Shown one piece after another: positions 1 through 30,123 of a stretch of 32,000 bases of DNA. Each line of letters begins with the position of its first letter. Position 1 is the first letter of the stretch. The stretch spans positions 480,001 through 512,000 of the forward strand of contig OZ245768.1 in assembly GCA_965227835.1 (NCBI GenBank), read 5' to 3'. The DNA comes from Candidatus Saccharimonadota bacterium. GTDB taxonomy: Bacteria > Patescibacteriota > Gracilibacteria > BD1-5 > UBA6164. The notes under the pieces are model-generated. The model was not told where the DNA came from and searched no databases. It worked only from the letters and a program-made list of their open reading frames with translations. The translations under genes and the position numbers were made by a program.

Positions 1-569
1 ATTTTTTCTATTTCTTTTAAATAATTTTCTATGAATTTATAAAAAAATACATTTGCTAATACATCTAATTCTTTTTTTACACTAAAATCTCTTTTTGTTA
101 TTCAAATTCAATACCTATTTATAAACTCTTTTTTATGATTATTTAATATTTTATCATCTATAATTTCATTTCCGAAATCTTGTAAGTAAATTAAAAAATT
201 ATAGATTTTTATATAAGAATTAATATCAATTGAATTAAACAAATTCATATAAGGTTCCATATTAATTCAATTGTACATAATTTTTAATCGTATTTTTTTA
301 TTTATTACATCTATTATATTTATTAAATATGTTCTATTTATTATATTATTTAAATTATCTATAGGTATTCAGCTTAAATCTAAATCTCAGTAAATTCAAA
401 TTAGAAATCAATGATCATAAAAAAAAGTATGTTTTTCTAATTTCTCCCAGGAAATAATACCTTTAGATTCTTTAACTATTTTTTCATAATGGTTGAATTG
501 TAGAGGAAGTAACTTTCTTCTTAATTTTTCTTTCGAAGAAAAATAATTTTTTATTTTATTTAAAAGCAT
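1..569 (-). CDS. LRR-like repeat family protein, paralog 1 (C-terminal end runs off the window)
   Basis: ATG at 569-567 on the minus strand. The frame is free of TAA/TAG to position 1 with TGA read as Gly. The N-terminus MLLNKIKNYFSS and blocks of the C-terminal half are nucleotide-identical to the 613..1518 gene. Only one GDLDLSG-type repeat unit is present. Confidence 0.75.
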
Positions 570-1682: not shown

Positions 1683-3428
1683 TTATCTTTTATTCTTTCA
1701 AAACTTATCTTTCATTCTTTTAATTTGCCTATCACTTAGCTTTTCTTCTAAAACTAAATTAAGTTCGGCTTCATTATCAAATAAATTAAAATCCATATCT
1801 ATACCATTTTCAAGTTTAAATTTATAATCTTCATAATTACCATAAGAGACTGATAGTTCTCAATCACTTATAAACCATATATTCGTAGCTAGTTTATTTA
1901 CAAAATATCTATCATGAGATATAAAAAGTATAGTTCAGCTATATTTGGATAAACTATTTTCAAGAGCTTCTCTAGTATCGTAATCCATATGATTTGTAGG
2001 TTCATCAAGTATCAATAAATTTGAATCTATTTGACCCAAAATAGCAAATAAAAGTTTGGAAGTCTGCCCACCAGAAAGTTCACAAACTTTTTTGTCTAAA
2101 TCTGTTTTTTCAAATAAATAGTGATTCAAAAGTCATATTAAAAATTCATCTTTGTATCAAAATCCAAACTTAAAAAAATTTTCTCTTATACTTTTTTTCT
2201 TATCTAGTTCTTCATGAAGTTGAGAATAATAAACTATTTTACAGCTTTTTCATTTACTAAAAAGTCATTCTAAAACTGGTATTTGTCATATAATAGTCTT
2301 AAGCAAAGTTGATTTTCAAACACCATTATCTCAAACTATACCTATTCTTTGATTTCTAAATAGCTGTAAATCTCTTATATAAAATAAAGGATCTTTTCTT
2401 CATATAAAAACCTCTTTGAATATAAGCATTTTCTCTGAAGATTCAGGATAACACTCAAAAAAGAATTTAGTTTTTTTAGGAATTTGAGGTTTTTCAACTT
2501 TATCCATTCTATCAAGCATCTTTTCTCTTGATTTTGCCCAAGATGCTCTAGATCAAGCTCTAAATCTATTTACCAAAACCTCTTGTTTTTTTAAATATTC
2601 TTTCTGTCTCTCCCATTCATTAATTTTCTTTTTTTCTCTCTTCTCTCTTTCAATCACATAATTTGAATAATTAGAATGATAAAAATCTATTCCCAAACTT
2701 CATTTTAACTCATAAGTTTTATCACAAGTTTTATCAAGAAATTCTCTATCATGAGATATTATTACATATCAGTTTTTCCATTTATTTTTTAAATATGATT
2801 CTAGCCATTCAACTCAAGCTATATCTATGAAATTTGTAGGTTCGTCTAAAAATAACAAATCAGGTGATTGTAAAAGTATTTTTGCCAAAGCAACTTTAGT
2901 CCTTTGTCATCAACTAATCTCTTTTAATTTTTCATTCAAAAGTCATAAAATTCACAATCAACTAGAAACATTATGTATTTTATTATCAAGTTCATATCAT
3001 CAAATATTTCTAAACTGTTCTAAAATGGAGGTATATCTTTCTATCAAATTTATATTTTCATTTGAGACATCCATATTTTCAGATCATTTTTCTGAATTTA
3101 AAAGGACTTCCTCTTCCATTTTTTTCAAATCTTTTTCCATATCTAAAACATCTTTAAAAGCTTGTCTTAATTCTTCTTTTACTGTAATTCCTTCATTATC
3201 TCAATAAATTTGAGTTAAATATCAAACACTTATTCATCAAATATTATCTATAAATCAATCAAAATCTTTATATTCTCAAGTTAATATTTTAAAAAAGCTA
3301 GTTTTTCAAACTCCATTTGGTCAAACTATGGCAACTCTATCGTTTATATTTAAAATAAACTCTATATTTTTTAAGATTTCTTTATCTTTAAACTCAAGTT
3401 TATTTATCTTTATTTTTAAATGCTTCAT
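1683..3428 (-). CDS. ABC-F family ATPase (two ABC domains, no membrane domain)
   Basis: 581-codon minus-strand ORF, checked for in-frame TAA/TAG. The N-terminal Walker A is GPNGVGKT, with both flanking Gly written as TGA. The second domain has the signature LSGGQ and the Walker B motif LILDEPTNHMD (track ORF 1935..2129 is in the same frame). Confidence 0.9.
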
Positions 3429-3480
3429 TTATGAAAGTTTTTTATAAAATTTATTCAGTAAAGTTATTTATATATTTTTC

Positions 3481-3828: not shown

Positions 3829-5754
3829 ATGCCTAATAAAAACAAAAAATTCATTCCAAAAATAAATTTCAAAAAACCACAAAAAAAACCAAACAGCACC
3901 AAACCATTTTTGGTTTTGTTTTTAATATCAGCCCTTTTTGTTTTAGTTTTGCCATATTTAAAGAAAGGTGAAATTTACACAGACACTAAAATAGGAATTA
4001 ACAAACTAGAAAAAAATTTTTCACAAGGGAAATATGAAAAAATTCTAATAGATAAAAATAAAGCATTTGCTACCTATTCTTGAACATGAGAACTAAGTGA
4101 TAAATGAAGAATGGTTGTAATAGATAATTGAATGAAAAAAATTGCTAGAGATGTGATAATACTTCCAAATAATGATTCTATAGAAGAACTAGGATTAAAA
4201 AACAATGAAATAGATACAATAATAGAAGTAAAAGATAACAGCCGTGCTCAATTTTGGGCAAATATGCTACCTACTATTCTCACAATATTACTTTTTTGAT
4301 TAGTAGCTTTTTTCCTTCTTTGAAAAATGTGATGAATGGCAAATAGTGCTATGACATTTAGTAAATCAAGAGCTAAACTTTATGACAAAGAAAAAGACAG
4401 AGTACTTTTTAAAGATGTAGCATGAGCAGAAGAAGAAAAACAAGAACTTTTAGAAGTAGTTGATTTTTTAAAAAATCCTAAAAAATATAAAGATTTATGA
4501 GCTAAAATACCTAGATGAACACTTCTTGTAGGTCCTCCTGGAACTTGAAAAACTTTGCTTGCAAGAGCCGTAGCATGAGAATCAAATGTACCATTTTTAA
4601 GTATAAGTTGATCTGAATTTGTAGAAATGTTTGTATGAGTATGAGCAGGTAGAGTAAGAGATTTATTTCAAAATGCTAAAAAAATGGCTCCAGCTATAAT
4701 ATTTATAGATGAAATAGATGCTATTTGAAAGAAAAGATGACCTTGAAATTGAGGATGACACGATGAAAGAGAACAAACATTGAATCAAATATTAACTGAA
4801 ATGGATTGATTTGACAATGACACAAATGTAATAGTTATGTGAGCAACAAACAGAGCAGATGTACTAGATAAAGCTCTTCTTAGACCGGGTAGATTTGATA
4901 GAAAAATAACTGTTAATCTCCCTAATTTATCAGATAGGGAAGAGATACTAAAAGTACATTCTAGGAATAAAAAAATTTCTAGAAATATAGATTTTAAATC
5001 ACTAGCAAGTCAAACTGTATGATTTTCATGAGCAGATATGTGAAATTTATTGAATGAAGCTGCAATAATAACAGCTAGAAAAAATGAGAAATCTATATGA
5101 AATAAAACTATAACTGAAGCTTTTGAAAGAATAGTTATGTGACTTAGAAAAAAATCTCAAGTAATGAATGAGCAAGAAAAGGAAATTACAGCTTATCATG
5201 AAGTATGACATGCTTTGGTATGAAAATTATTAAAAAATACAGATCCTGTACACAAAGTTAGTATAGTTTCTAGATGATGAGCTCTTTGAGTAACTTGGTT
5301 TTTACCAGAAAGAGATGCACTTCTTACATCAAAAGCTAAATATTTAGATGAACTAGCAACCCTTTATTGATGAAGAGCAGCTGAGGAAATATTTTTTGGT
5401 GAGCAAAATATAACAACATGAGCAAGTAATGATATAGAAAGAGCTACAAAAATAGCAAGAGCTATGGTTATGAGATTTTGAATGTTTGAAGAAATTTGAG
5501 CTGAAAATTTTGTTTGAGAACTTGATATTTATTCTGGACAATGACAAAAAATGAGTATATCCGAAGAAACAACAAAAAAGATAGATGAAAAAGTAAAAAA
5601 TGTATTGAAAGAAGCTTATAATATTGCACTTGATCTTATAAAGAAAAATAAAAAACTTCACGATAAAATATCAAAAGATTTACTTGAAAAAGAAGAAATA
5701 AGCAGGGAAGAGTTTGAAGCTTATTTTACGGAAAAAAGTACTCCTAAATCTTAA
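3829..5754 (+). CDS. ftsH: ATP-dependent zinc metalloprotease FtsH
   Basis: 641-codon ORF. It has an N-terminal TM segment, Walker A GPPGTGKT (the Gly after T is TGA at 4546-4548), Walker B IIFIDEID and a C-terminal M41 protease region. Track fragments 3829..4083 and 5551..5754 are in the same frame. Confidence 0.95.
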
Positions 5755-5762
5755 AGAATTAT

Positions 5763-6422
5763 ATGGAAAGTAACAGTTTCTTAGAAGCCAAAAGACATAT
5801 ATTTATATGAGATATACACTGATGTTTTGATGAGTTTATGCTTCTTTTGGAAAAATTAAAAATAACCATAAAAGATAAAATTTATCTGACAGGGGACTTG
5901 ATAAATAAATGACCAAAATCTTATGATACTCTGAAATTTGTATATGAAAATAGAAATAGATTTTTTTGTGTAATGTGAAATCATGAGAATTGATTTTTAA
6001 AATGGTTAAAATGAAATATCAAAACTAAAAATAACAAAGAAACTTTTTTAGATTTAAAAGAAAAACTTGATTTAGAACCACATTTAATGGATTTCGTAAA
6101 AGATTTGCCTTTGTATATAGATAAAGAAAATTTCTTACTTTTGCATTGATGAATAATACCTTGAAAAGATTTGGAAGAACATATTGCAGATGAAATAACT
6201 GAACTTAGAGAATATGAATGAAAAGCTTGGTATGAATATTATAAATGAGATAAAAAGATAATTTATGGACACTGGGCTTTAGGTTGATTAAATATAAGAG
6301 ATAATACAATATGACTTGATTCATGATGCGTGTATTGATGATACTTATCGGCTTACATTTTGGAAACAGGGGAGCTGATTAAACAAAAAGCTCTAAAAAC
6401 TTACAAAGAAATTAAAGTTTAA
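5763..6422 (+). CDS. Metallophosphoesterase (PPP family, ApaH/PrpE-like)
   Basis: 219-codon ORF, checked codon by codon. Motifs GDIHGCFDEF, GDLINKGP, GNHEN and HGG appear in the canonical order. Confidence 0.85.
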
Positions 6423-6446
6423 AAAAGAAAGAATATAGTTAACTTT

Positions 6447-6469
6447 CAACAGAGAGCTTTAGCTCTTTG
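6447..6469 (+). repeat. Intergenic hairpin repeat, copy 3 (CAACAGAGAGCTTTAGCTCTTTG)
   Basis: Stem CAGAGAGC/GCTCTTTG with loop TTTA, 25 nt after the phosphoesterase stop. Identical to copy 7 (17599..17621, opposite strand). Confidence 0.8.
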
Positions 6470-6560
6470 TAATTGTATTTAATACAAAAAAACTTTATTT
6501 TCTATGAATATATAAATTTGGTTTAACCCTAGTAAGACATTACCCTAAGTTACCAATCGG

Positions 6561-6637
6561 ACCTCACACCCAATTTCTCTCCAACTCCACTTAACCCTAA
6601 CTATTTCCTATAAAACCTCACCCTAACCCTCTCCTTA
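6561..6637 (+). other. G-free, C-rich tract (77 nt, about 43 percent C, no G)
   Basis: Counted directly: 33 C and 0 G in 77 nt, in a genome that is otherwise about three quarters A+T. Copies of ACCCTA (= TTAGGGT on the minus strand) occur in and just upstream of the tract. Confidence 0.9.
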
Positions 6638-6739
6638 GAGTAGAGAGAATAGAACAGAGGGAATAGAATAGGAGGATAATAAAAATAGACAAAAAAGAAC
6701 TTTCTTTATATTTGCTCTGAATAATCTTACTTCAAAGAC

Positions 6740-6757
6740 AAGGGGTCTTGACCCCTT
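6740..6757. repeat. Perfect palindrome AAGGGGTC-TT-GACCCCTT abutting the 20-bp repeat array
   Basis: 8+8 bp dyad read directly. A near-identical copy plus the following TTGCATTTT occurs at 17702..17726. Confidence 0.85.
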
Positions 6758-6896
6758 GCATTTTGTCTTGAATTACTGCATTTTGTCTTGAATTACTGCA
6801 TTTTGCCTCGATCCATTGCATTCTATCCTAAACTCTTGCATTTTGCCTCAACCCCTTGCATTTTATCCTAAACTCTTGCATTTTAGATATTGATCT
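6757..6896 (+). repeat. Seven tandem 20-bp direct repeats (TGCATTTTGYCTYRA-N5), iteron-like
   Basis: Units start at 6757, 6777, 6797, 6817, 6837, 6857 and 6877, each beginning TGCATT(T/C)T. Units 1 and 2 are identical. A 20-bp period is not a multiple of 3, so the array is non-coding. Confidence 0.9.
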
Positions 6897-7017
6897 AGTA
6901 ATTAATTAAGAAAATCCTAAAGATTAACATCTTTGTTATTACCAAGTAATTGATTCTTTATATAACAATAAAGATTCTATTATAAGGTTCAAAAATTTAT
7001 AATTTATTATTAAAAAA

Positions 7018-7629
7018 ATGAATGAAATTATAAGCTATATAGTTAATATAGCAGAACAATTTGGTTATGTTTGAATTTTTGTGATGATGACAATAGAATC
7101 AAGTTTTATACCTTTTCCATCTGAAGTTGCTATGATTCCTGCTTGATATTTATCAAGTATATGAAAAATGAATTTTTCAATAGCCTTTATAGCTTGAACA
7201 GCTTGAGCTTTACTAGGTGCAACTATAAATTATGTATTAGCTTATCATTTATGAGAAAAATTAACAGTTAGACTTATAAGGAAATATTGAAAATATTTCT
7301 TCTTAGAAGAATCTTCTTACCTAAAAGCTGAAAAATATTTTTTAAAACACTGAATTATAACTATTTTTCTAGCTAGATTTATTACTGTTATAAGGCAATT
7401 AATAAGTTTACCAGCATGAGCTTTTAGGATAAATTTTGCTAAATTTTTCTTTTATACAGGACTTGGAGCATGAATGTGGAATTTAGGTTTAATGTTTGTT
7501 TGATATGTGGCTTGAGAAAACAAAGAGCTCATAGAAAAATATTCCTATGAGCTTTTGATATGAGGATTAATTTTTATAATTGCTGTTTGAAGTATTTATA
7601 TTTATAGAAATTCAAAAAAGAAAGTTTAG
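7018..7629 (+). CDS. DedA family membrane protein
   Basis: 203-codon ORF, checked codon by codon, with stop TAG. Sequence features include YVGIFVMMTIESSFIPFPSEV...PAGY, several TM segments and the FxARFIxVIRQLISLPAG motif typical of DedA/SNARE-associated proteins. Confidence 0.85.
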
Positions 7630-8138: not shown

Positions 8139-8453
8139 TTATTCGTCAACAGTATGAGGATTTATTAGTTTATTATAATCTACTTCACCACTACTTATTT
8201 GTTCTTCTTCAAATCTTCTAAATTCATCTTTGTCTAGTAATTCTACTTCATCTAATCAATAAGATCAATTTTTTCAAGAACTATTTATTGCATTTGAATT
8301 TAAATAATAATCCTCTCAATTTTCTCCTGAATCTAAAATTTCTCAAGTATTAACACTAAAACAATCTAAAAAATTTTCCACATCTGAATCTAGTCATAAA
8401 CTTCAAAATCAAGAATTATCTAACCCGTCAGATATTAATTCAGCATTTGCCAT
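8139..8453 (-). CDS. Hypothetical small acidic protein (104 aa), N-terminus MANAELISDGLDN
   Basis: Minus-strand ORF, checked codon by codon, roughly a quarter Asp/Glu. It shares its promoter, 5' UTR and first 13 codons with the 8768..9265 gene. Confidence 0.7.
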
Positions 8454-8484
8454 AATTATAAAAATTAAATATTAAAGTATAATA

Positions 8485-8513
8485 ATTATAATATACTTAA
8501 TAAATTAAGTCAA
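8485..8513 (-). promoter_or_regulatory. Consensus sigma70-type promoter of the 8139..8453 gene
   Basis: On the minus strand: TTGACT (8513-8508), a 17-nt spacer, then TATAAT (8490-8485). It lies about 30 nt upstream of the ATG. Confidence 0.6.
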
Positions 8514-8658
8514 AAATCTAAAAAGTTTTTTTATTTATTCATTTATTATTATTTCTGGAGTAAGTAAGATCTATTTTAGAATCTTGAAATAGAATATATG
8601 AAGTTAAAACAATAGGGAATTATAGAATAATTTATTTTAAAATTTAAACACCAAAAGC

Positions 8659-8767: not shown

Positions 8768-9265
8768 TTAAAATTTACGTTTTTTAATCTTTGGATTATA
8801 TAATTTAGCTCCTGAACTATTTGCGATTTTTTCTTTACTATTTGGCCTTTCCCATTTGATTGAACCTTCATACGGTCCGAACATGATTCCTGTTTCTGCT
8901 CCAAATCAAAATTCACGTGTTTTACTAAGAATTTTCTGGTGTAAATATTCAATATCAACAAGATCAAAACCTTCTAAATTAAATCATGTTCTTTCAGCTT
9001 CATCTAATAGAGCTCTAAACTTATTATAATTTTCTAAAACATAGTGAATAGGCTCACTATCATAAAGAAGAGATAAAGCCTGTAATTCTAATAACATATA
9101 AATTACATTTGAAGGTTGAACTAATCTACCTATGATACTTTTCGTTCAATCTAAAGTTCTTAAAGTATTCTTTGACAATGAATCAATATTATTTCATGAA
9201 TTTAAACTTTTATCAACATTTAACTCATTATCTAACCCATCAGATATTAACTCACCATTTGCCAT
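8768..9265 (-). CDS. Hypothetical protein (165 aa), N-terminus MANGELISDGLDN
   Basis: Minus-strand ORF from ATG 9265-9263 to TAA 8770-8768; every in-frame tta/cta was checked. It is out of frame with the track ORF 8716..8967, which I judge to be an artefact. Confidence 0.7.
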
Positions 9266-9297
9266 AATTATAAAAATTAAAAATTAAAGTTATAATA

Positions 9298-9326
9298 ATT
9301 ATAATATACTTAATAAATTAAGTCAA
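9298..9326 (-). promoter_or_regulatory. Consensus sigma70-type promoter of the 8768..9265 gene
   Basis: On the minus strand: TTGACT (9326-9321), a 17-nt spacer, then TATAAT (9303-9298). It is part of the 150-bp duplicated block. Confidence 0.6.
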
Positions 9327-9347
9327 AAATCTGAAATTTTTTTCAAA

Positions 9348-10586
9348 TTATTCATTTATTATTATTTCTGGGACTTCAGGATGAGACAAAAAACCTTGTG
9401 GGGACATAGACTTTCAATATGCTCCAGACTGTGGCATAACCACATAATCTCATATATTTGCAGTAATTCAAGTTTTTCATTTAGCTAAATAATCAACAGA
9501 AGTACAAAAAGGTCAGTATATATTTACTAAATCTTCACTACAAACTCTTGCCTCCTCCAATCATAAATTTTTTAAAACATAGTTTATATCATCTTTTGTC
9601 TCAATATTTACTACATCTATATGATAATCTATTCACAAAACTTGAGGTCTTTTATGTGCATTTGTTCAAGCATAACAAAGTATTCATTTACTAGACTTTC
9701 ATACTTTTTTTATATCATTTATCTTAGTTACAAAATATCACATATCTGCTCACAAATATCTTCATAATTCTAATATAAAAGTCTTTTCTCAAAAACCATA
9801 TTTATCTATTAACTCTCATAATCACTCACTATATTTTTGTATATCAAACTTACTAAATCAACCGTAATCAACTCAAAATCATCAACCAAAATCTATAGTT
9901 CTAAAATTTTTTCAAGTTTTATTTTCTATTTCAGCTACAAACTTAAAAGTTTCATCTACACTTCTTAAAAGAACTCAAGCACTCATTATTCAAGTAGCTG
10001 GATACATATGAAATCAATCAACTTTTATATTTTCAAACTTAGATAATATCTTTAAAATTTCTATTGTATCATCTTGTGCTACTCAAAATTGTGTATCTCA
10101 ACTTCAAAGTTTTACTCAAGCCTCTCAATCCAAAAATTTATGTTTGGTATTTAGTCTAAGAAGTATATTTTGAACAATTCAGATTTCTCTAGCTTTTTTA
10201 TTTATCCTTATAGCTTCAACTAAAGATTCTACATTTAGATATCATATATTATTTTCTATACAAAAATCTAGCTCTTTAGAAGTTTTACTTGGTCATGTAT
10301 ATATGACACGACTTAGATCCTTCTCTCAGTTTGATAAAACTATATCTATCTCTCATCTAGATGCCACTTCTATTCATTTTATATTAGAATGTTTCAAAGC
10401 TTCATTTACCACTTTTTTATGAGGGTTTACCTTCATAGCAAAATAAGTATCTACTTTGCTTGGAAGACAAGATAAAATAGACATTTTAGATCTCATTACT
10501 TCAAGATCATATATATACATAGAATCAAGACTAGTATTTTCTCTTATAGTATTTACTATATTTTCAGGAGTTTTATATCTTTCCAT
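9348..10586 (-). CDS. Group IV PLP-dependent decarboxylase (diaminopimelate/ornithine/carboxynorspermidine decarboxylase family)
   Basis: 412-codon ORF, checked for stops. Motifs seen: YFAMKVNP (the PLP lysine), GIEVASRGE, GPSKTSKEL, IDFGGGFG, and C-terminal SGAYGKSMS. Confidence 0.85.
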
Positions 10587-14583: not shown

Positions 14584-14600
14584 TATATACTCAGTATATA
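14584..14600. promoter_or_regulatory. 17-bp perfect palindrome TATATACT-C-AGTATATA, candidate LexA operator
   Basis: 8+1+8 dyad read directly. It contains the self-complementary AGTATATACT and overlaps the -10 box of the lexA promoter. Confidence 0.5.
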
Positions 14601-14620
14601 CTCACAAAATATTTTGTCAA
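14593..14620 (-). promoter_or_regulatory. lexA promoter
   Basis: On the minus strand: TTGACA (14620-14615), a 16-nt spacer, then TATACT (14598-14593). It lies about 55 nt upstream of the ATG at 14538. Confidence 0.5.
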
Positions 14621-17621: not shown

Positions 17622-17701
17622 ATAAATTTTTACAAATTATATTTAATTTATAAAGCTGGTTTAAAATCATTGATTTTAAGATATATAATAAATACTTAGA
17701 C

Positions 17702-17726
17702 AAGAGGTCTTGACCCCTTGCATTTT
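17702..17726 (+). repeat. Second copy of the palindrome plus TTGCATTTT module (AAGAGGTCTTGACCCCTTGCATTTT)
   Basis: 24 of 25 nt identical to 6740..6764. Confidence 0.8.
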
Positions 17727-19656: not shown

Positions 19657-20340
19657 ATGCAACTAACAGATAGAAATATACTTATATTAAAAATAATAAT
19701 AGAAGAATTTTTGAAAAATGGTGATTTAATAGGCTCAAAACTCTTACTTTCAAAGTTTGATTTATGAGTAAGTCCTGCGACTGTTAGGTGAGATATGGCA
19801 AAACTTGAAAAAATGAATTTAGTTTTTCAACCCTATAATTCTGCATGAAGAATGCCTACTTCAAGCTGAATTAGAGTATATGTAGATTATATGATGAAAG
19901 AAACTCCTTCATATTTTTTAAATGAGAACAATGTAGAGATATCTTGAAATATAAAAAACTTTTCTGATTATGTTTATAATATAACGAATTCTTTGTCAAA
20001 AAATACTATGGAGTTGAGTTTTTTTAGTATCCCTGAACAAAACATATTATGATATTCTTGAATATCAAACTTTATAAAAATAAATAAGTTAGAAGATAGC
20101 AGTAAGATAATAGAAATGCTTGAAGATAAAATAAGGTTTATGGATTTTTTATCTAGTTTATCATTAAAACCTGGGATAAATTTATTTATATGAGACGAAA
20201 ATAGTATAAATTATCTTAAAAAATTCTCAATAATTATAAAACCTATAATTATAAACAGTGAAAAGGGTTATATATGAATAATATGATCAATCGGGCAAAA
20301 TTATAGCTTTAATATAGCTGCTATAAAAGGTATAATATAA
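19657..20340 (+). CDS. hrcA: Heat-inducible transcription repressor HrcA (short form, 227 aa)
   Basis: ORF checked codon by codon. The N-terminal winged helix LTDRNILILKIIIEEFLKNGDLIGSKLLLSKFDLGVSPATVRGDMAKLEKMNLVFQPYNSAGRMPTSSGIRVYVDYM matches the HrcA consensus (SAGRxPTxxGYRxYVD). Confidence 0.85.
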
Positions 20341-20345
20341 AAAAC

Positions 20346-20373
20346 TTGACTTATTAATAAAAACTATTAAGAT
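20346..20373 (+). promoter_or_regulatory. Promoter of minigene A
   Basis: TTGACT (20346-20351), a 16-nt spacer, then TAAGAT (20368-20373). An identical copy lies 252 bp downstream. Confidence 0.5.
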
Positions 20374-20409
20374 ACAAAATACAATTTTATTTTTTAACTA
20401 TAAAAAGTT

Positions 20410-20592
20410 ATGGAAAACAATGACGTAGGTATTCAATGTAAAGGTCCTCAGACTATAACAGACTTAAGCAAACTAAAATATATTTGATCAAATTTAGATT
20501 TAGGTTCTATTGATCATTTACCTCAACTAATTAAAAGTTCTACGGGACAAATCCTAGATTCAATTAATAATGATTTGAGTGATTCTAAATAA
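20410..20592 (+). CDS. Small protein A (60 aa) with one LRR-like unit
   Basis: MENNDVGIQCKGPQTITDLSKLKYIGSNLDLGSIDHLPQLIKSSTGQILDSINNDLSDSK. It is preceded by an in-frame TAA and ends at TAA. The first 23 codons are identical to minigene B. Confidence 0.65.
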
Positions 20593-20597
20593 AAAAC

Positions 20598-20625
20598 TTG
20601 ACTTATTAATAAAAACTATTAAGAT
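20598..20625 (+). promoter_or_regulatory. Promoter of minigene B
   Basis: Exact copy of 20346..20373. Confidence 0.5.
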
Positions 20626-20661
20626 ACAAAATACAATTTTATTTTTTAACTATAAAAAGTT

Positions 20662-20823
20662 ATGGAAAACAATGACGTAGGTATTCAATGTAAAGGTCCT
20701 CAGACTATAACAGACTTAAGCAAACTAAAATGTGTTTGATTAGATTTTGATTATATCGAAAGTGAATCTGAATTAGCTAGAAGCTCTACAGAAAAAATTT
20801 TAGGAAAACCTCAAGATAAATAA
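20662..20823 (+). CDS. Small protein B (53 aa), paralog of A with a divergent C-terminus
   Basis: MENNDVGIQCKGPQTITDLSKLKCVGLDFDYIESESELARSSTEKILGKPQDK, ending at TAA. Confidence 0.65.
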
Positions 20824-28972: not shown

Positions 28973-29012
28973 AAAAAAGAAGCTAAAACATAAAAATTTT
29001 AGCTTCTTTTTT
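28973..29012. terminator. Bidirectional terminator between convergent genes
   Basis: 16-bp stem aaaaaagaagctaaaa/ttttagcttctttttt with an 8-nt loop. The right arm overlaps the stop codon of the LRR gene (29001-28999). Confidence 0.7.
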
Positions 29013-30123
29013 TTGTCAATTTTTCTTTCATCTCTTTTCTAAACTCATCTAAGAGTCTATTTTTTATTTCTTCTCAAAAATAATGCTCTATTTCATGAAA
29101 TTTATCATCTAGTTTTTTATAAATTTCTTCTATTTTTTCATCAATTTCATTCTTGGAAGCTCAATTTTTTTGCATTAGTTTTATTTTATGACCATAGCTT
29201 AGAAAATTTTCTACAAACTGATAATAAAATATATTCGCTAGGATATTTAATTCTTTTTTAACTTTATCATCTCTTTTTGCTTTTCAAGATCAATATCTAT
29301 TTATAAACTCTTTTTTTTGATCATTTAATAATTCTTCATCTGTAATTTCATCTTCAAAAACTCAAAAACTATTTAAAAACAAAGAAATATCAATATAACT
29401 TTTAAAATTCGTTCAATCATATATGATTTCTCATCTTACTTTTATAGAATTTGTAATTATTTCTTTTAATATATTTTTTAGAGCATTCCATGATATTCAG
29501 TTTAAAGTTAAATCATTTCAAACAATATGTAACTTCGGTAAATTTTCTATAAGAGTTCATTGTAAATTTAAATCGTATCAAACATATTCTAATTTTGGTA
29601 AATCTTTTATAGAAGTTCATTGTAAGCTTAAATCAAATCAAACATTTTCTAAATTTGGTAAGATTTCTATAAAAGTTCATTGTAAAAATAAACTCAGTCA
29701 AACTTCTTTTAATTTTGGTAAATCTTCTATAGAAGTTCACTGTAAGTTTAAGTCAAATCAAACATTTTCTAAATTTGGTAAGCTTTCTATAAGAGTTCAT
29801 TGTAAATTTAAATTCATTCAAACTTCTTCCAATTTTGACAAACTTTTTACAAAAGTTCATACTAGCACTAAAGTTCATCAAACACTTTTTAAATATGATA
29901 AATCCGTTATAGGTTTATACTTTAAATTTAAATCTCATTTCCAATAAATTCAATCTAATCCTCAACCAGATTTAAATTTGCTATATTTTTCTAGTTTCTC
30001 CCAAGACATAATACCACTTGATTCCTTAAACATTCTTTCATAGTCTATAAATTGTTCAGGAGTTAGTTTCCTTTTAAGATTTTCTTTCGGAGAGAAATAA
30101 TTTTTTATCTTTTCTAAATTCAT
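28999..30123 (-). CDS. LRR-like repeat family protein, paralog 3 (about 8 repeat units)
   Basis: 374-codon ORF, checked codon by codon. The N-terminus MNLEKIKNYFSPKENLKRKL is related to paralogs 1 and 2. The centre is a tandem run of 20-aa units LPxLExVGxDLxLQGTxIEx. The C-terminal domain is shared with the paralogs (FINRYG.GK...ANIFYY.F.EN). Confidence 0.8.
29497..29940 (-). repeat. Tandem 60-bp coding repeats (about 7 units, with a 120-bp alternating super-period)
   Basis: Successive 60-nt sequence lines 29521-29880 align column for column. Units alternate between a ..caaacattttctaaatttggtaag.. type and a ..caaacttcttttaattttggtaaatc.. type. Confidence 0.9.

What the first reader, a model, noticed from the sequence alone, without database searches (positions are those of the whole stretch)
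6737..6896. Iteron-like array: an 18-bp palindrome followed by seven phased 20-bp direct repeats
**Seen directly.** AAGGGGTC-TT-GACCCCTT (6740-6757) runs straight into seven head-to-tail 20-bp units. Each begins TGCATT(T/C)T, at 6757, 6777, 6797, 6817, 6837, 6857 and 6877. Units 1 and 2 are identical and the later ones diverge in the 3' half.

A 20-bp period is two helical turns and is not divisible by 3. The array is therefore non-coding and would present the conserved TTGCATTTT on one face of the helix. A single copy of the palindrome plus TTGCATTTT recurs at 17702..17726.

**Established knowledge.** Arrays of 17-22 bp phased direct repeats are typical of iteron-controlled replication origins, partition centromeres and some cooperative repressor sites.

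**Inference.** No Rep, Par or DnaA gene is adjacent; the flanking genes are a phosphoesterase and dedA. The cognate binding protein is therefore unknown.
Basis: partly seen in the sequence, partly recalled or inferred. Interest (0 to 1): 0.7.

Follow-up and report, generated by a model that had tools for sequence, protein, structure and literature searches.

The report
Terminator hairpin tail amplified into minisatellite
The seven phased 20-bp repeats are real, but they are most likely tandem copies of the tail of a terminator-type hairpin in a Gracilibacteria chromosome, not a replication origin or partition site, so the finding is a modest curiosity.

Summary
A hairpin (CAAGGGGT-CTTG-ACCCCTTG, 6739-6758) runs into seven head-to-tail 20-bp units (6745-6884), and a 29-nt copy of hairpin plus TTGCATTTT recurs at 17698-17726.

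The window comes from a Candidatus Gracilibacteria chromosome (23.7% GC, TGA = Gly, no Shine-Dalgarno use).

- **The hairpin element.** It is an imperfect 30-bp palindrome with an A-tract on one side and a T-tract on the other. This is the design of a bidirectional intrinsic terminator. Copy 2 lies between convergent genes, 45 nt after a stop codon.
- **The repeat unit.** It is exactly the last 20 nt of that element.
- **Internal history.** The array shows recent duplications: two pairs of identical units and a 40-bp higher-order period.
- **Variable columns.** Nine of the ten two-state variable columns are transitions.
- **Comparative evidence.** The array is absent from every retrievable relative. 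In those, ftsH and dedA sit about 76 bp apart, against 598 bp here.
- **Origin or centromere.** There is no Rep, Par or DnaA gene, no DnaA-box cluster, no skew switch, and no similarity to plasmids or phages.
- **A parallel case.** An unrelated, cosmopolitan hairpin shows the same "hairpin plus phased arm repeats" layout.

Best reading: a lineage-specific minisatellite derived from a terminator. A protein-binding role cannot be excluded, because the 8-nt core is far better conserved than the 12-nt spacer.

The parts
5763..6422 (+). Metallophosphoesterase gene (code 25), immediately upstream of the spacer
   Evidence: Code-25 translation. Homologs carry PF00149 and are named metallophosphoesterase, Gracilibacteria.
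6449..6470 (+). First terminator-like hairpin after the phosphoesterase gene. It belongs to the dispersed CAGAnnGCTwwAGCnnTCTG hairpin family.
   Evidence: Terminator scan. Stability -12.1 kcal/mol, z -3.9. Other family copies at 3480, 3618, 15927 and 17599 (D12).
6561..6637 (+). A 77-nt G-free, 43% C tract with the strongest C-over-G bias in the window. It overlaps a degenerate copy (6613-6652) of the GC-rich hairpin family CCTCACCCTAACCCTCTCC...GGAGAGGG.
   Evidence: 34 C and 2 G in 80 nt; the next best region has 22 and 2. BLAST matches to L021 and L024.
6734..6764 (.). Copy 1 of the terminator-type element. It is an imperfect 30-bp palindrome with an A-tract on the left and a T-tract on the right. 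The stem-loop CAAGGGGT-CTTG-ACCCCTTG is at 6739-6758.
   Evidence: D14; I3. Stability -12.9 kcal/mol on + and -14.8 kcal/mol on -.
6745..6884 (+). Seven head-to-tail 20-bp units of the form RYCYYRAMYYMT + TGCATTTT. Unit 0 is the loop, 3' arm and tail of the hairpin element.
   Evidence: (D6).
6885..6904 (+). Possible decayed eighth unit (AGATATTGATCTAGTAATTA)
   Evidence: Read directly. It keeps roughly 7 of 11 positions of ...TCTTGCATTTT. Weak evidence.
7018..7629 (+). dedA gene (code 25). Its start lies 134 bp downstream of the array.
   Evidence: PF09335; DedA family protein, Candidatus Gracilibacteria.
17698..17726 (.). Copy 2 of the 29-nt element, in single-copy form with no array. It lies between convergent genes, 45 nt downstream of the stop codon of the minus-strand ABC ATPase gene.
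   Evidence: (D14). The minus-strand RNA hairpin is -11.3 kcal/mol, against -6.0 on the + strand.

Best explanation
**What it is.** The palindrome plus TTGCATTTT is a dispersed stem-loop element of the bidirectional intrinsic-terminator type. It has a GC-rich 8-bp stem and a 4-nt loop, with an A-tract upstream and a T-tract downstream.

**How the array arose.** At 6745-6884 the last 20 nt of this element (loop, 3' arm and T-tract) have been amplified head-to-tail into seven units, perhaps eight. The likely mechanism is replication slippage or unequal exchange seeded at the hairpin. Older units then decayed, mainly by transitions at G/C positions.

**Context.** The result is a lineage-specific minisatellite. 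It sits in a repeat-laden 595-bp spacer that, together with the phosphoesterase gene, has been inserted into an ancestrally tight ftsH-dedA pair.

**Possible function.** If it does anything, it acts with the two hairpins and the C-rich tract as a transcription stop or insulator between the upstream genes and dedA. It is not a replication origin or a partition site.

**Shown:** the anatomy, the identity of the unit with the element's 3' end, the internal duplication structure, the absence from relatives, and the lack of origin or partition features.

**Inferred:** the slippage mechanism, the terminator activity, and the lack of a dedicated binding protein.
For: 1. The hairpin passes the terminator test on the + strand. 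It is the terminator-like site with the most G-C pairs in the window.
2. It extends into a 30-bp imperfect palindrome with A and T tracts and is stable on both strands.
3. Copy 2 lies between convergent genes, 45 nt after a stop codon. This is the expected place for a bidirectional terminator.
4. The single-copy form ends exactly at ...TTGCATTTT, and the array unit equals its last 20 nt.
5. Units 1 and 2 are identical, units 4 and 6 are identical, and the 40-bp period fits better than the 20-bp period (83% against 72%). This is the signature of recent slippage or unequal exchange.
6. Nine of the ten two-state variable columns are transitions, and every variable column involves a G or C state. 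This fits AT-biased decay in a 24% GC genome.
7. The array is absent from 24 Gracilibacteria/Peribacteria dedA loci. The median spacer upstream of dedA is about 76 bp in 18 relatives, against 598 bp here. The 75% relative has a 19-20 bp gap.
8. The spacer also contains two other repeat families, so it is a repeat-accumulating region.
9. The same layout exists for an unrelated hairpin in L027: blocks of 3, 5 and 3 repeats of 21 bp, the first two ending in the perfect hairpin and the third in a one-mismatch copy. It also occurs in high-GC viral contigs L065 and L078. In that family and in the window, the period equals the hairpin length, 21 and 20 respectively.
Against: 1. The 8-nt core TGCATTTT is much better conserved than the 12-nt spacer. 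One of 8 core columns varies against 10 of 12 spacer columns (Fisher p = 0.0045), and per-site difference is 0.05 against 0.45. Neutral decay of whole units would not predict this.
2. AT-biased mutation explains only part of that contrast. My own hand calculation from the columns, restricted to G/C-containing columns, gives 10 of 11 variable in the spacer against 0 of 2 in the core (p about 0.04).
3. The period-equals-hairpin-length regularity fails in two other arrays flanked by hairpins: L035 (27 against 18) and L037 (25 against 22).
4. Terminator activity is untested, and the T-tract is interrupted (UUGCAUUUU).
5. Copy-number variation between strains could not be examined, because the closest genome (93% protein identity) was not retrievable.
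Confidence: 0.5

Rival explanations
1. The array is a true iteron-like platform. An unknown DNA-binding protein recognises the TGCATTTT core at seven phased sites and regulates dedA, or organises local DNA. Copy 2 would be a single site.
For: - Conserved core and variable spacer.
- Strict 20-bp phasing without indels.
- Position -273 to -134 relative to the dedA start.
- The purine/pyrimidine pattern of the spacer is preserved, with nine transitions to one transversion.
Against: - The core is the T-tract of a terminator-type element, and the unit boundary coincides with that element's end.
- No candidate binding protein is nearby. LexA's own operator is unrelated, and Pfam finds no other regulator next to the array.
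- The motif is not enriched elsewhere in the window.
- The array is absent from all relatives with the same gene neighbourhood.
- The analogous L027 arrays repeat a different part of their hairpin (the arm plus the 5' flank). This argues for a structural or mutational origin rather than a specific protein-binding site.
Confidence: 0.17
2. The array is part of a small non-coding RNA on the minus strand. That RNA would consist of seven 20-nt repeats (AAAAUGCA plus a purine-rich block) followed by the hairpin as its terminator, acting as a multi-site sponge or decoy RNA.
For: - The hairpin is more stable on the minus strand in both copies: -14.8 and -11.3 kcal/mol, z -3.8 and -3.5.
- The one substitution in copy 2 is a G-U wobble on the minus strand but an A-C mismatch on the plus strand.
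- The minus-strand array RNA folds with z = -2.8.
- The first two L027 modules likewise read as repeats followed by a hairpin.
Against: - There is no sigma-70-like promoter on the minus strand between the array and dedA, although real genes here have near-consensus promoters.
- No Rfam family matches.
- The organism does not use Shine-Dalgarno sites (0 of 31 genes), so an RBS-mimic role is unlikely.
- One transition is only coin-flip evidence for the strand.
- The fold z-score comes mainly from repeat-to-repeat pairing.
- The array is not conserved in relatives.
Confidence: 0.1
3. The array is a replication origin (iteron-controlled or oriC-like) or a plasmid/chromosome partition centromere.
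For: Only the morphology supports this: 20-bp phased direct repeats next to a palindrome.
Against: - No rep, dnaA, dnaN or par genes are present in the 32 kb window.
- No DnaA box with up to 1 mismatch lies in 6420-7017, and there is no cluster elsewhere.
- GC skew tracks gene orientation, with no switch at 6.8 kb.
- The gene content is ordinary chromosomal housekeeping: ftsH, lexA, ftsA-like, hrcA, grpE, trx.
- Nothing similar exists in plasmid or phage records.
- Relatives with the same synteny lack the array.
Confidence: 0.03
4. The C-rich, G-poor plus-strand sequence is a Rho-utilisation (rut-like) loading zone. It comprises the G-free tract at 6561-6637 and the array itself. It would enforce termination between the phosphoesterase gene and dedA, and the repeats would be retained because they supply regularly spaced YC-rich RNA.
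For: - The strongest C-over-G bias of the whole window is at 6556-6635, and the array ranks among the top regions.
- The spacer is the most GC-rich intergenic region, at 0.30 against 0.09-0.24 for the others.
Against: - Whether this organism has Rho was not tested.
- The C-rich tract is partly a degenerate copy of a dispersed GC-rich hairpin family.
- Two intrinsic terminator-like hairpins are already present.
Confidence: 0.08
5. The array is an assembly artefact in which the repeat number was inflated or invented by the assembler.
For: None directly. No reads are available.
Against: - The units are diverged (72% matches, five distinct unit types), so reads can be placed uniquely.
- The whole array is only 140 bp long and can be spanned by single reads.
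Confidence: 0.02

Closest known systems
Bacterial intergenic minisatellites (VNTRs) formed by slipped-strand or unequal-exchange amplification
   Same: - Head-to-tail units of 10-100 bp.
- Identical neighbouring units and a higher-order 40-bp period.
- Lineage-specific presence and a non-coding location.
   Different: - The unit is derived from, and still joined to, one half of a terminator-type hairpin.
- The 8-nt sub-motif is much better conserved than the rest of the unit.
- Copy-number polymorphism, the defining property of a VNTR, could not be tested.
Bidirectional Rho-independent terminators and REP/BIME-type dispersed palindromic elements
   Same: - GC-rich stem-loop with flanking A and T tracts.
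- Repeated in intergenic regions, with copy 2 between convergent genes just after a stop codon.
- Clustered with other hairpin families in one spacer.
   Different: - BIMEs are mosaics of whole REPs in alternating orientation. Here only one arm plus the tail is reiterated, always in direct orientation.
- Only two copies are visible.
- The genome-wide census and the presence of a RAYT transposase could not be tested.
Iterons of theta-replicating plasmids (for example pSC101, R6K, RK2, P1) and partition-site repeat arrays
   Same: A phased array of about 20-bp direct repeats with a conserved core, next to an inverted repeat.
   Different: - No rep or par gene, no DnaA boxes and no plasmid or phage context.
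- The chromosomal housekeeping neighbourhood is syntenic with relatives that lack the array.
- The period is 20 bp, whereas iterons typically have 21-22 bp.
Arm-repeat arrays next to the cosmopolitan hairpin GTCAyCCTGAA-CTTGT-TTCAGGrTC (L027, L065, L078). To my knowledge this element has no name.
   Same: - A hairpin with a CTTG-type loop has one arm that is also the terminal unit of a phased direct-repeat array.
- The period equals the hairpin length.
- The location is intergenic, between convergent genes in L027.
   Different: - The sequences are unrelated.
- There the 5' arm plus the upstream flank is repeated and the arm is the conserved part. Here the 3' arm plus the tail is repeated and the tail is the conserved part.

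Membership tests
Iteron-controlled replication origin | Tandem 17-22 bp direct repeats with a conserved core | tested here: met
   Seven 20-bp units; the core TGCATTTT is conserved.
Iteron-controlled replication origin | Adjacent gene for the cognate Rep initiator | tested here: not met
   The neighbours are ABC-F, FtsH, metallophosphoesterase, DedA and small acidic hypothetical proteins with no Pfam hit. No Rep was found anywhere in the 32 kb window.
Iteron-controlled replication origin | DnaA boxes or an origin-associated skew switch | tested here: not met
   No TTATCCACA match with up to 1 mismatch in 6420-7017. GC skew follows gene orientation.
Iteron-controlled replication origin | Plasmid or phage replicon context | tested here: not met
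   No phage hit, and one chance 41-nt plasmid hit. The locus is syntenic with chromosomal loci of relatives.
Partition centromere (parS/parC type) | Adjacent parA/parB or parM/parR operon | tested here: not met
   None is present among the code-25 ORFs of the window.
Rho-independent (intrinsic) terminator | GC-rich stem-loop followed by a T/U-rich tract | tested here: met
   The stem has 8 bp, of which 5 are G-C, and a 4-nt loop. The tail is CATTTTGT. Stability is -12.9 kcal/mol on + and -14.8 on -.
Rho-independent (intrinsic) terminator | Position shortly downstream of a gene's 3' end | tested here: inconclusive
   Copy 2 lies 45 nt after the ABC ATPase stop on the minus strand, which meets the feature. 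Copy 1 lies about 320 nt after the phosphoesterase stop and behind another hairpin.
Rho-independent (intrinsic) terminator | Transcripts end at the site | not testable with these tools
   This needs Term-seq, RNA-seq or in vitro transcription.
Minisatellite / VNTR | Head-to-tail repeats with internal evidence of recent duplication | tested here: met
   Two pairs of identical units, and a 40-bp higher-order period at 83%.
Minisatellite / VNTR | Copy-number variation between strains | not testable with these tools
   The closest genome (93% protein identity, 1.49-Mb contig) could not be fetched. The exact 19-mer is absent from GTDB representatives, JGI metagenomes and IMG/VR, apart from chance hits.
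REP/BIME dispersed palindromic elements | Many dispersed intergenic copies of an imperfect palindrome | tested here: inconclusive
   There are two copies in 32 kb, where chance expects none. A genome-wide count was not possible.
CRISPR array | Repeats of about 23-50 bp separated by unique spacers of similar length | tested here: not met
   The conserved part is 8 nt. The 12-nt spacers are related to each other and two pairs are identical.
Structured non-coding RNA (Rfam) | Match to a curated covariance model | tested here: not met
   No hit at gathering score. Permissive scanning gave only hits with E >= 0.16.

The most novel reading that the evidence does not exclude
"Hairpin plus phased repeats of one arm and its flank" could be a recurrent, functional element class rather than replication debris. 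It is seen here, in another Gracilibacteria genome, and next to a cosmopolitan hairpin in high-GC contigs. It might be a multi-site platform for an unknown DNA- or RNA-binding protein, with the window's TGCATTTT core under selection. Alternatively it might be a small repeat RNA ending in the hairpin.
Probability: 0.12. Interest if true: 0.6.

Novelty: new member of a known kind. Interest (0 to 1): 0.25.

Why it matters
**If the main reading is right**, the array is an ordinary by-product of hairpin-associated replication slippage. Its value is then practical in two ways. It could serve as a strain-typing (VNTR) marker. It also marks a spot where an ancestral ftsH-dedA unit was split by a gene insertion plus a stack of terminator-type repeats.

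**Two observations are mildly interesting.**
- The core is about nine times better conserved than the spacer.
- Arm-repeat arrays recur next to unrelated hairpins, with the period equal to the hairpin length in two families.

If these arrays prove to be selected, they would point to an unrecognised protein-binding or RNA element class in CPR bacteria, whose gene regulation is almost unknown.

Tried and rejected
1. **Origin of replication.** No DnaA boxes, no skew switch and no rep or dnaA gene.
2. **Known RNA family.** Rfam at gathering score and at permissive thresholds gave nothing credible, and there are no tRNA or tmRNA genes.
3. **Structured RNA across the spacer.** Fold z-scores are -0.1 (+ strand, 6500-6770), -1.1 (- strand, 6500-6900) and -0.9 (+ strand, array).
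4. **Decayed CYTH gene.** This gene occupies the slot in the 75% relative. tblastn found nothing.
5. **Coding.**
   - The 74-aa minus-strand ORF (6600-6821) has no Pfam hit.
   - Its glycine codon use is atypical, with 5 GGN against 2 TGA, where real genes use mostly TGA.
6. **Minus-strand units as RBS-plus-AUG mimics.** Rejected, because 0 of 31 genes have an SD-like motif.
7. **LexA as the binder.** Its own operator is a different palindrome.
8. **Reiteration of the arm downstream of copy 2 (about 14-nt period).** Not significant: 123 of 2000 shuffles do as well, and TRF finds nothing.
9. **Finding the element elsewhere.**
   - The exact 19-mer is absent from GTDB representatives and IMG/VR.
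   - The three metagenome hits are chance matches in DNA of 36-60% GC.
   - The 14-mer hairpin core is absent from all fetched loci.
10. **Fetching the closest genome (93% DedA and phosphoesterase identity).** Neither protein is on record in the contig index.
11. **Literature.** No paper on such arrays in Gracilibacteria or on the cosmopolitan hairpin sequence.
12. **"Period equals hairpin length" as a general rule.** It holds for two hairpin families but fails for two other arrays.

Full report
**Source and genetic code.** The window has 23.7% GC. Under table 11 it has only 15 ORFs of at least 100 aa, against 58 when TGA is read as sense. In every gene TGA outnumbers GGN, for example 40 against 11 in ftsH, while TGG is still used. 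TGA falls at conserved glycines of DedA. DedA and phosphoesterase homologs are named Candidatus Gracilibacteria. The window is therefore a Gracilibacteria chromosome fragment using code 25. None of 31 genes has an AGGA/GGAG/GAGG motif upstream. Several genes have near-consensus sigma-70 promoters.

**The observation.**
- The sequence is as described.
- TRF finds 6745-6884 with period 20, 7.0 copies, 72% matches and no indels. A 40-bp period gives 83% matches.
- None of 200 simulated 32-kb sequences reaches this score.
- The palindrome recurs at 17702-17719 with one mismatch, where chance expects none.
- The shared element is 29 nt long: AGACAAG(G/A)GGTCTTGACCCCTTGCATTTT (D14).
- The bare 9-mer is not enriched outside the array.

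**Anatomy of the locus.**

| Coordinates | Feature |
|---|---|
| 1686-3428 (-) | ABC-F gene |
| 3829-5751 (+) | ftsH |
| 5763-6419 (+) | Metallophosphoesterase gene |
| 6423-7017 | 595-bp spacer |
| 7018-7626 (+) | dedA |

The spacer is the most GC-rich intergenic region in the window, at 0.30 against 0.09-0.24 for the others. It holds four features:
- **6449-6470:** a terminator-like hairpin of a dispersed family (D12, 37, 75).
- **6561-6637:** a G-free, 43% C tract with the strongest C-over-G bias in the window. It overlaps a degenerate copy of a GC-rich hairpin family also present in L021 and L024.
- **6739-6758:** the hairpin CAAGGGGT-CTTG-ACCCCTTG. It passes the terminator test and has the most G-C pairs of any terminator-like site in the window.
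- **6745-6884:** the array.

**The hairpin element is of terminator type.**
- It extends into an imperfect 30-bp palindrome, AAAgaCAAGGGGTC-TT-GACCCCTTGcaTTT. An A-tract lies on one side and a T-tract on the other, which is the design of a bidirectional terminator.
- Copy 2 lies between convergent genes, 45 nt after the stop of the minus-strand ABC ATPase gene.
- Both copies fold more stably as minus-strand RNA: -14.8 and -11.3 kcal/mol, against -12.9 and -6.0 on the plus strand.
- The single substitution in copy 2 is a G-U wobble on the minus strand and an A-C mismatch on the plus strand. One transition is only coin-flip evidence for the working strand.

**The array is the element's last 20 nt, amplified.**
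- The single-copy form ends at ...TTGCATTTT, and the array restarts from GTCTTG inside the loop.
- Units 1 and 2 are identical, units 4 and 6 are identical, and units 3 and 5 differ at 4 of 20 positions, 3 of them in the spacer. This indicates a 20-bp duplication and a 40-bp duplication.
- Nine of the ten two-state variable columns are transitions, and all variable columns involve a G or C state. This is as expected for AT-biased decay.
- The core is far better conserved than the spacer. One of 8 core columns varies against 10 of 12 spacer columns (p = 0.0045), and per-site difference is 0.05 against 0.45.
- Mutational bias explains only part of this contrast. This is the main reason a binding function cannot be dismissed.

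**Comparative evidence.**
- The element's 19-mer is absent from GTDB representatives and IMG/VR. Its only metagenome hits are chance matches.
- No phased TGCATTTT array exists in 24 Gracilibacteria/Peribacteria dedA loci.
- In the 75% relative, dedA follows a CYTH gene after 19-20 bp. In L044, ftsH, dedA and the phosphoesterase gene are tightly packed, with one pair overlapping.
- Across 18 relatives the spacer upstream of dedA has a median of about 76 bp, usually with ftsH directly upstream.
- The array and its spacer are therefore a recent, lineage-specific addition.
- The 93% relative could not be retrieved.

**Tests of the origin and centromere reading.** All were negative:
- No Rep, Par, DnaA or integrase gene.
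- No DnaA boxes in the spacer.
- GC skew follows gene orientation.
- No similarity to phage or plasmid records.

**A parallel case.**
- In about 355 kb of Gracilibacteria DNA, the only other GC-enriched short-period arrays with at least 2.8 copies are three blocks in L027. A 2.6-copy 14-bp repeat in L021 was the only other hit.
- The L027 blocks are 21-bp repeats, CCGTCATCCTGAAYNCCACAA. In the first two blocks the last unit is the 5' arm of the hairpin ATCCTGAA-CTTGT-TTCAGGAT; the third block ends in a one-mismatch copy of it (TTCAGAAT), which the hairpin scan did not report. The blocks lie between convergent genes.
- That hairpin core is cosmopolitan. It has 73 IMG/VR loci with GC from 28% to 71%.
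- Eight of 71 hairpins have extra 5'-arm copies upstream, most often at 21-bp spacing. These include the high-GC contigs L065 and L078.
- In that family and in the window, the period equals the hairpin length (21 and 20). Two other arrays flanked by hairpins do not follow this.
- The regularity suggests duplication by slippage of a nascent-strand hairpin. This is an inference only.

**Verdict.** The best explanation is a lineage-specific minisatellite made from the tail of a terminator-type hairpin, with confidence 0.5.

| Rival explanation | Confidence |
|---|---|
| Protein-binding platform | 0.17 |
| Minus-strand repeat RNA | 0.10 |
| Rut-like termination zone | 0.08 |
| Origin or centromere | 0.03 |
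| Assembly artefact | 0.02 |

Interest is low to moderate.

Noticed in passing
whole window: The genome is recoded. TGA is the main glycine codon (code 25), for example 40 TGA against 11 GGN in ftsH. None of 31 genes has a Shine-Dalgarno-like motif, and start contexts are A/T-rich. Table-11 ORF lists are therefore misleading here.
   Followed up: yes
window 3829-7626, compared with L004, L044 and 16 other loci: ftsH-dedA adjacency with a gap of about 25-90 bp is the common state in Gracilibacteria/Peribacteria. In this lineage a metallophosphoesterase gene plus a 595-bp repeat-rich spacer lies between them. In the 75% relative a CYTH gene lies there instead.
   Followed up: partly
window 6561-6637 (+): A 77-nt G-free tract with 43% C, in a 24% GC genome. 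It has the strongest C-over-G bias of the window on either strand and resembles a Rho-utilisation site. Whether this organism has Rho was not tested.
   Followed up: partly
window 6613-6652; L021 3896-3935 and 4140-4185; L024 15643-15720: A GC-rich hairpin family (...CCTCACCCTAACCCTCTCC-loop-GGAGAGGG...) is shared at about 90% identity between different Gracilibacteria genomes. The window's copy is degenerate.
   Followed up: partly
window 3480, 3618, 6449, 15927, 17599 (and similar hairpins at about 17375 and 17441): A dispersed family of terminator-like hairpins, CAGAnnGCTwwAGCnnTCTG, lies in intergenic regions.
   Followed up: partly
L027 17370-17700; L065, L078, L099, L062, L102: A cosmopolitan hairpin, GTCAyCCTGAA-CTTGT-TTCAGGrTC, has 73 exact 17-mer hits in IMG/VR across 28-71% GC. 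In some genomes it is preceded by 21-bp tandem reiterations of its 5' arm. In L102 it is repeated as a 94-bp module. No Rfam family or paper was found for it.
   Followed up: partly
window 20337-20500 and 20589-20752: A 164-nt direct duplication (97% identity) covers a promoter-like region and the first 24 or so codons of a small ORF (MENNDVGIQCKGPQTITDLSKLK...). It looks like a recent tandem duplication of a small gene's 5' end, downstream of hrcA.
   Followed up: partly
window 8415-8558 and 9227-9371: Two paralogous small acidic proteins (MANAELISDGLDN... and MANGELISDGLDN...) share 87-94% identical upstream regions, each with a near-consensus promoter (TTGACT-17-TATAAT). They have no Pfam hits.
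   Followed up: no
window 3-569, 616-1518, 29002-30123; coding repeat 29496-29860: Three paralogs of a protein family share a conserved N-terminus (ML(L)NKIKNYFS...). They carry 60-nt (20-aa) leucine-rich-type coding repeats. No Pfam hit was found for the one tested.
   Followed up: no
window 14584-14604: The palindrome TATATACTGAGTATATA overlaps the -10 region of the lexA promoter (TTGACA-16-TATACT). It is a likely SOS box for this lineage.
   Followed up: no
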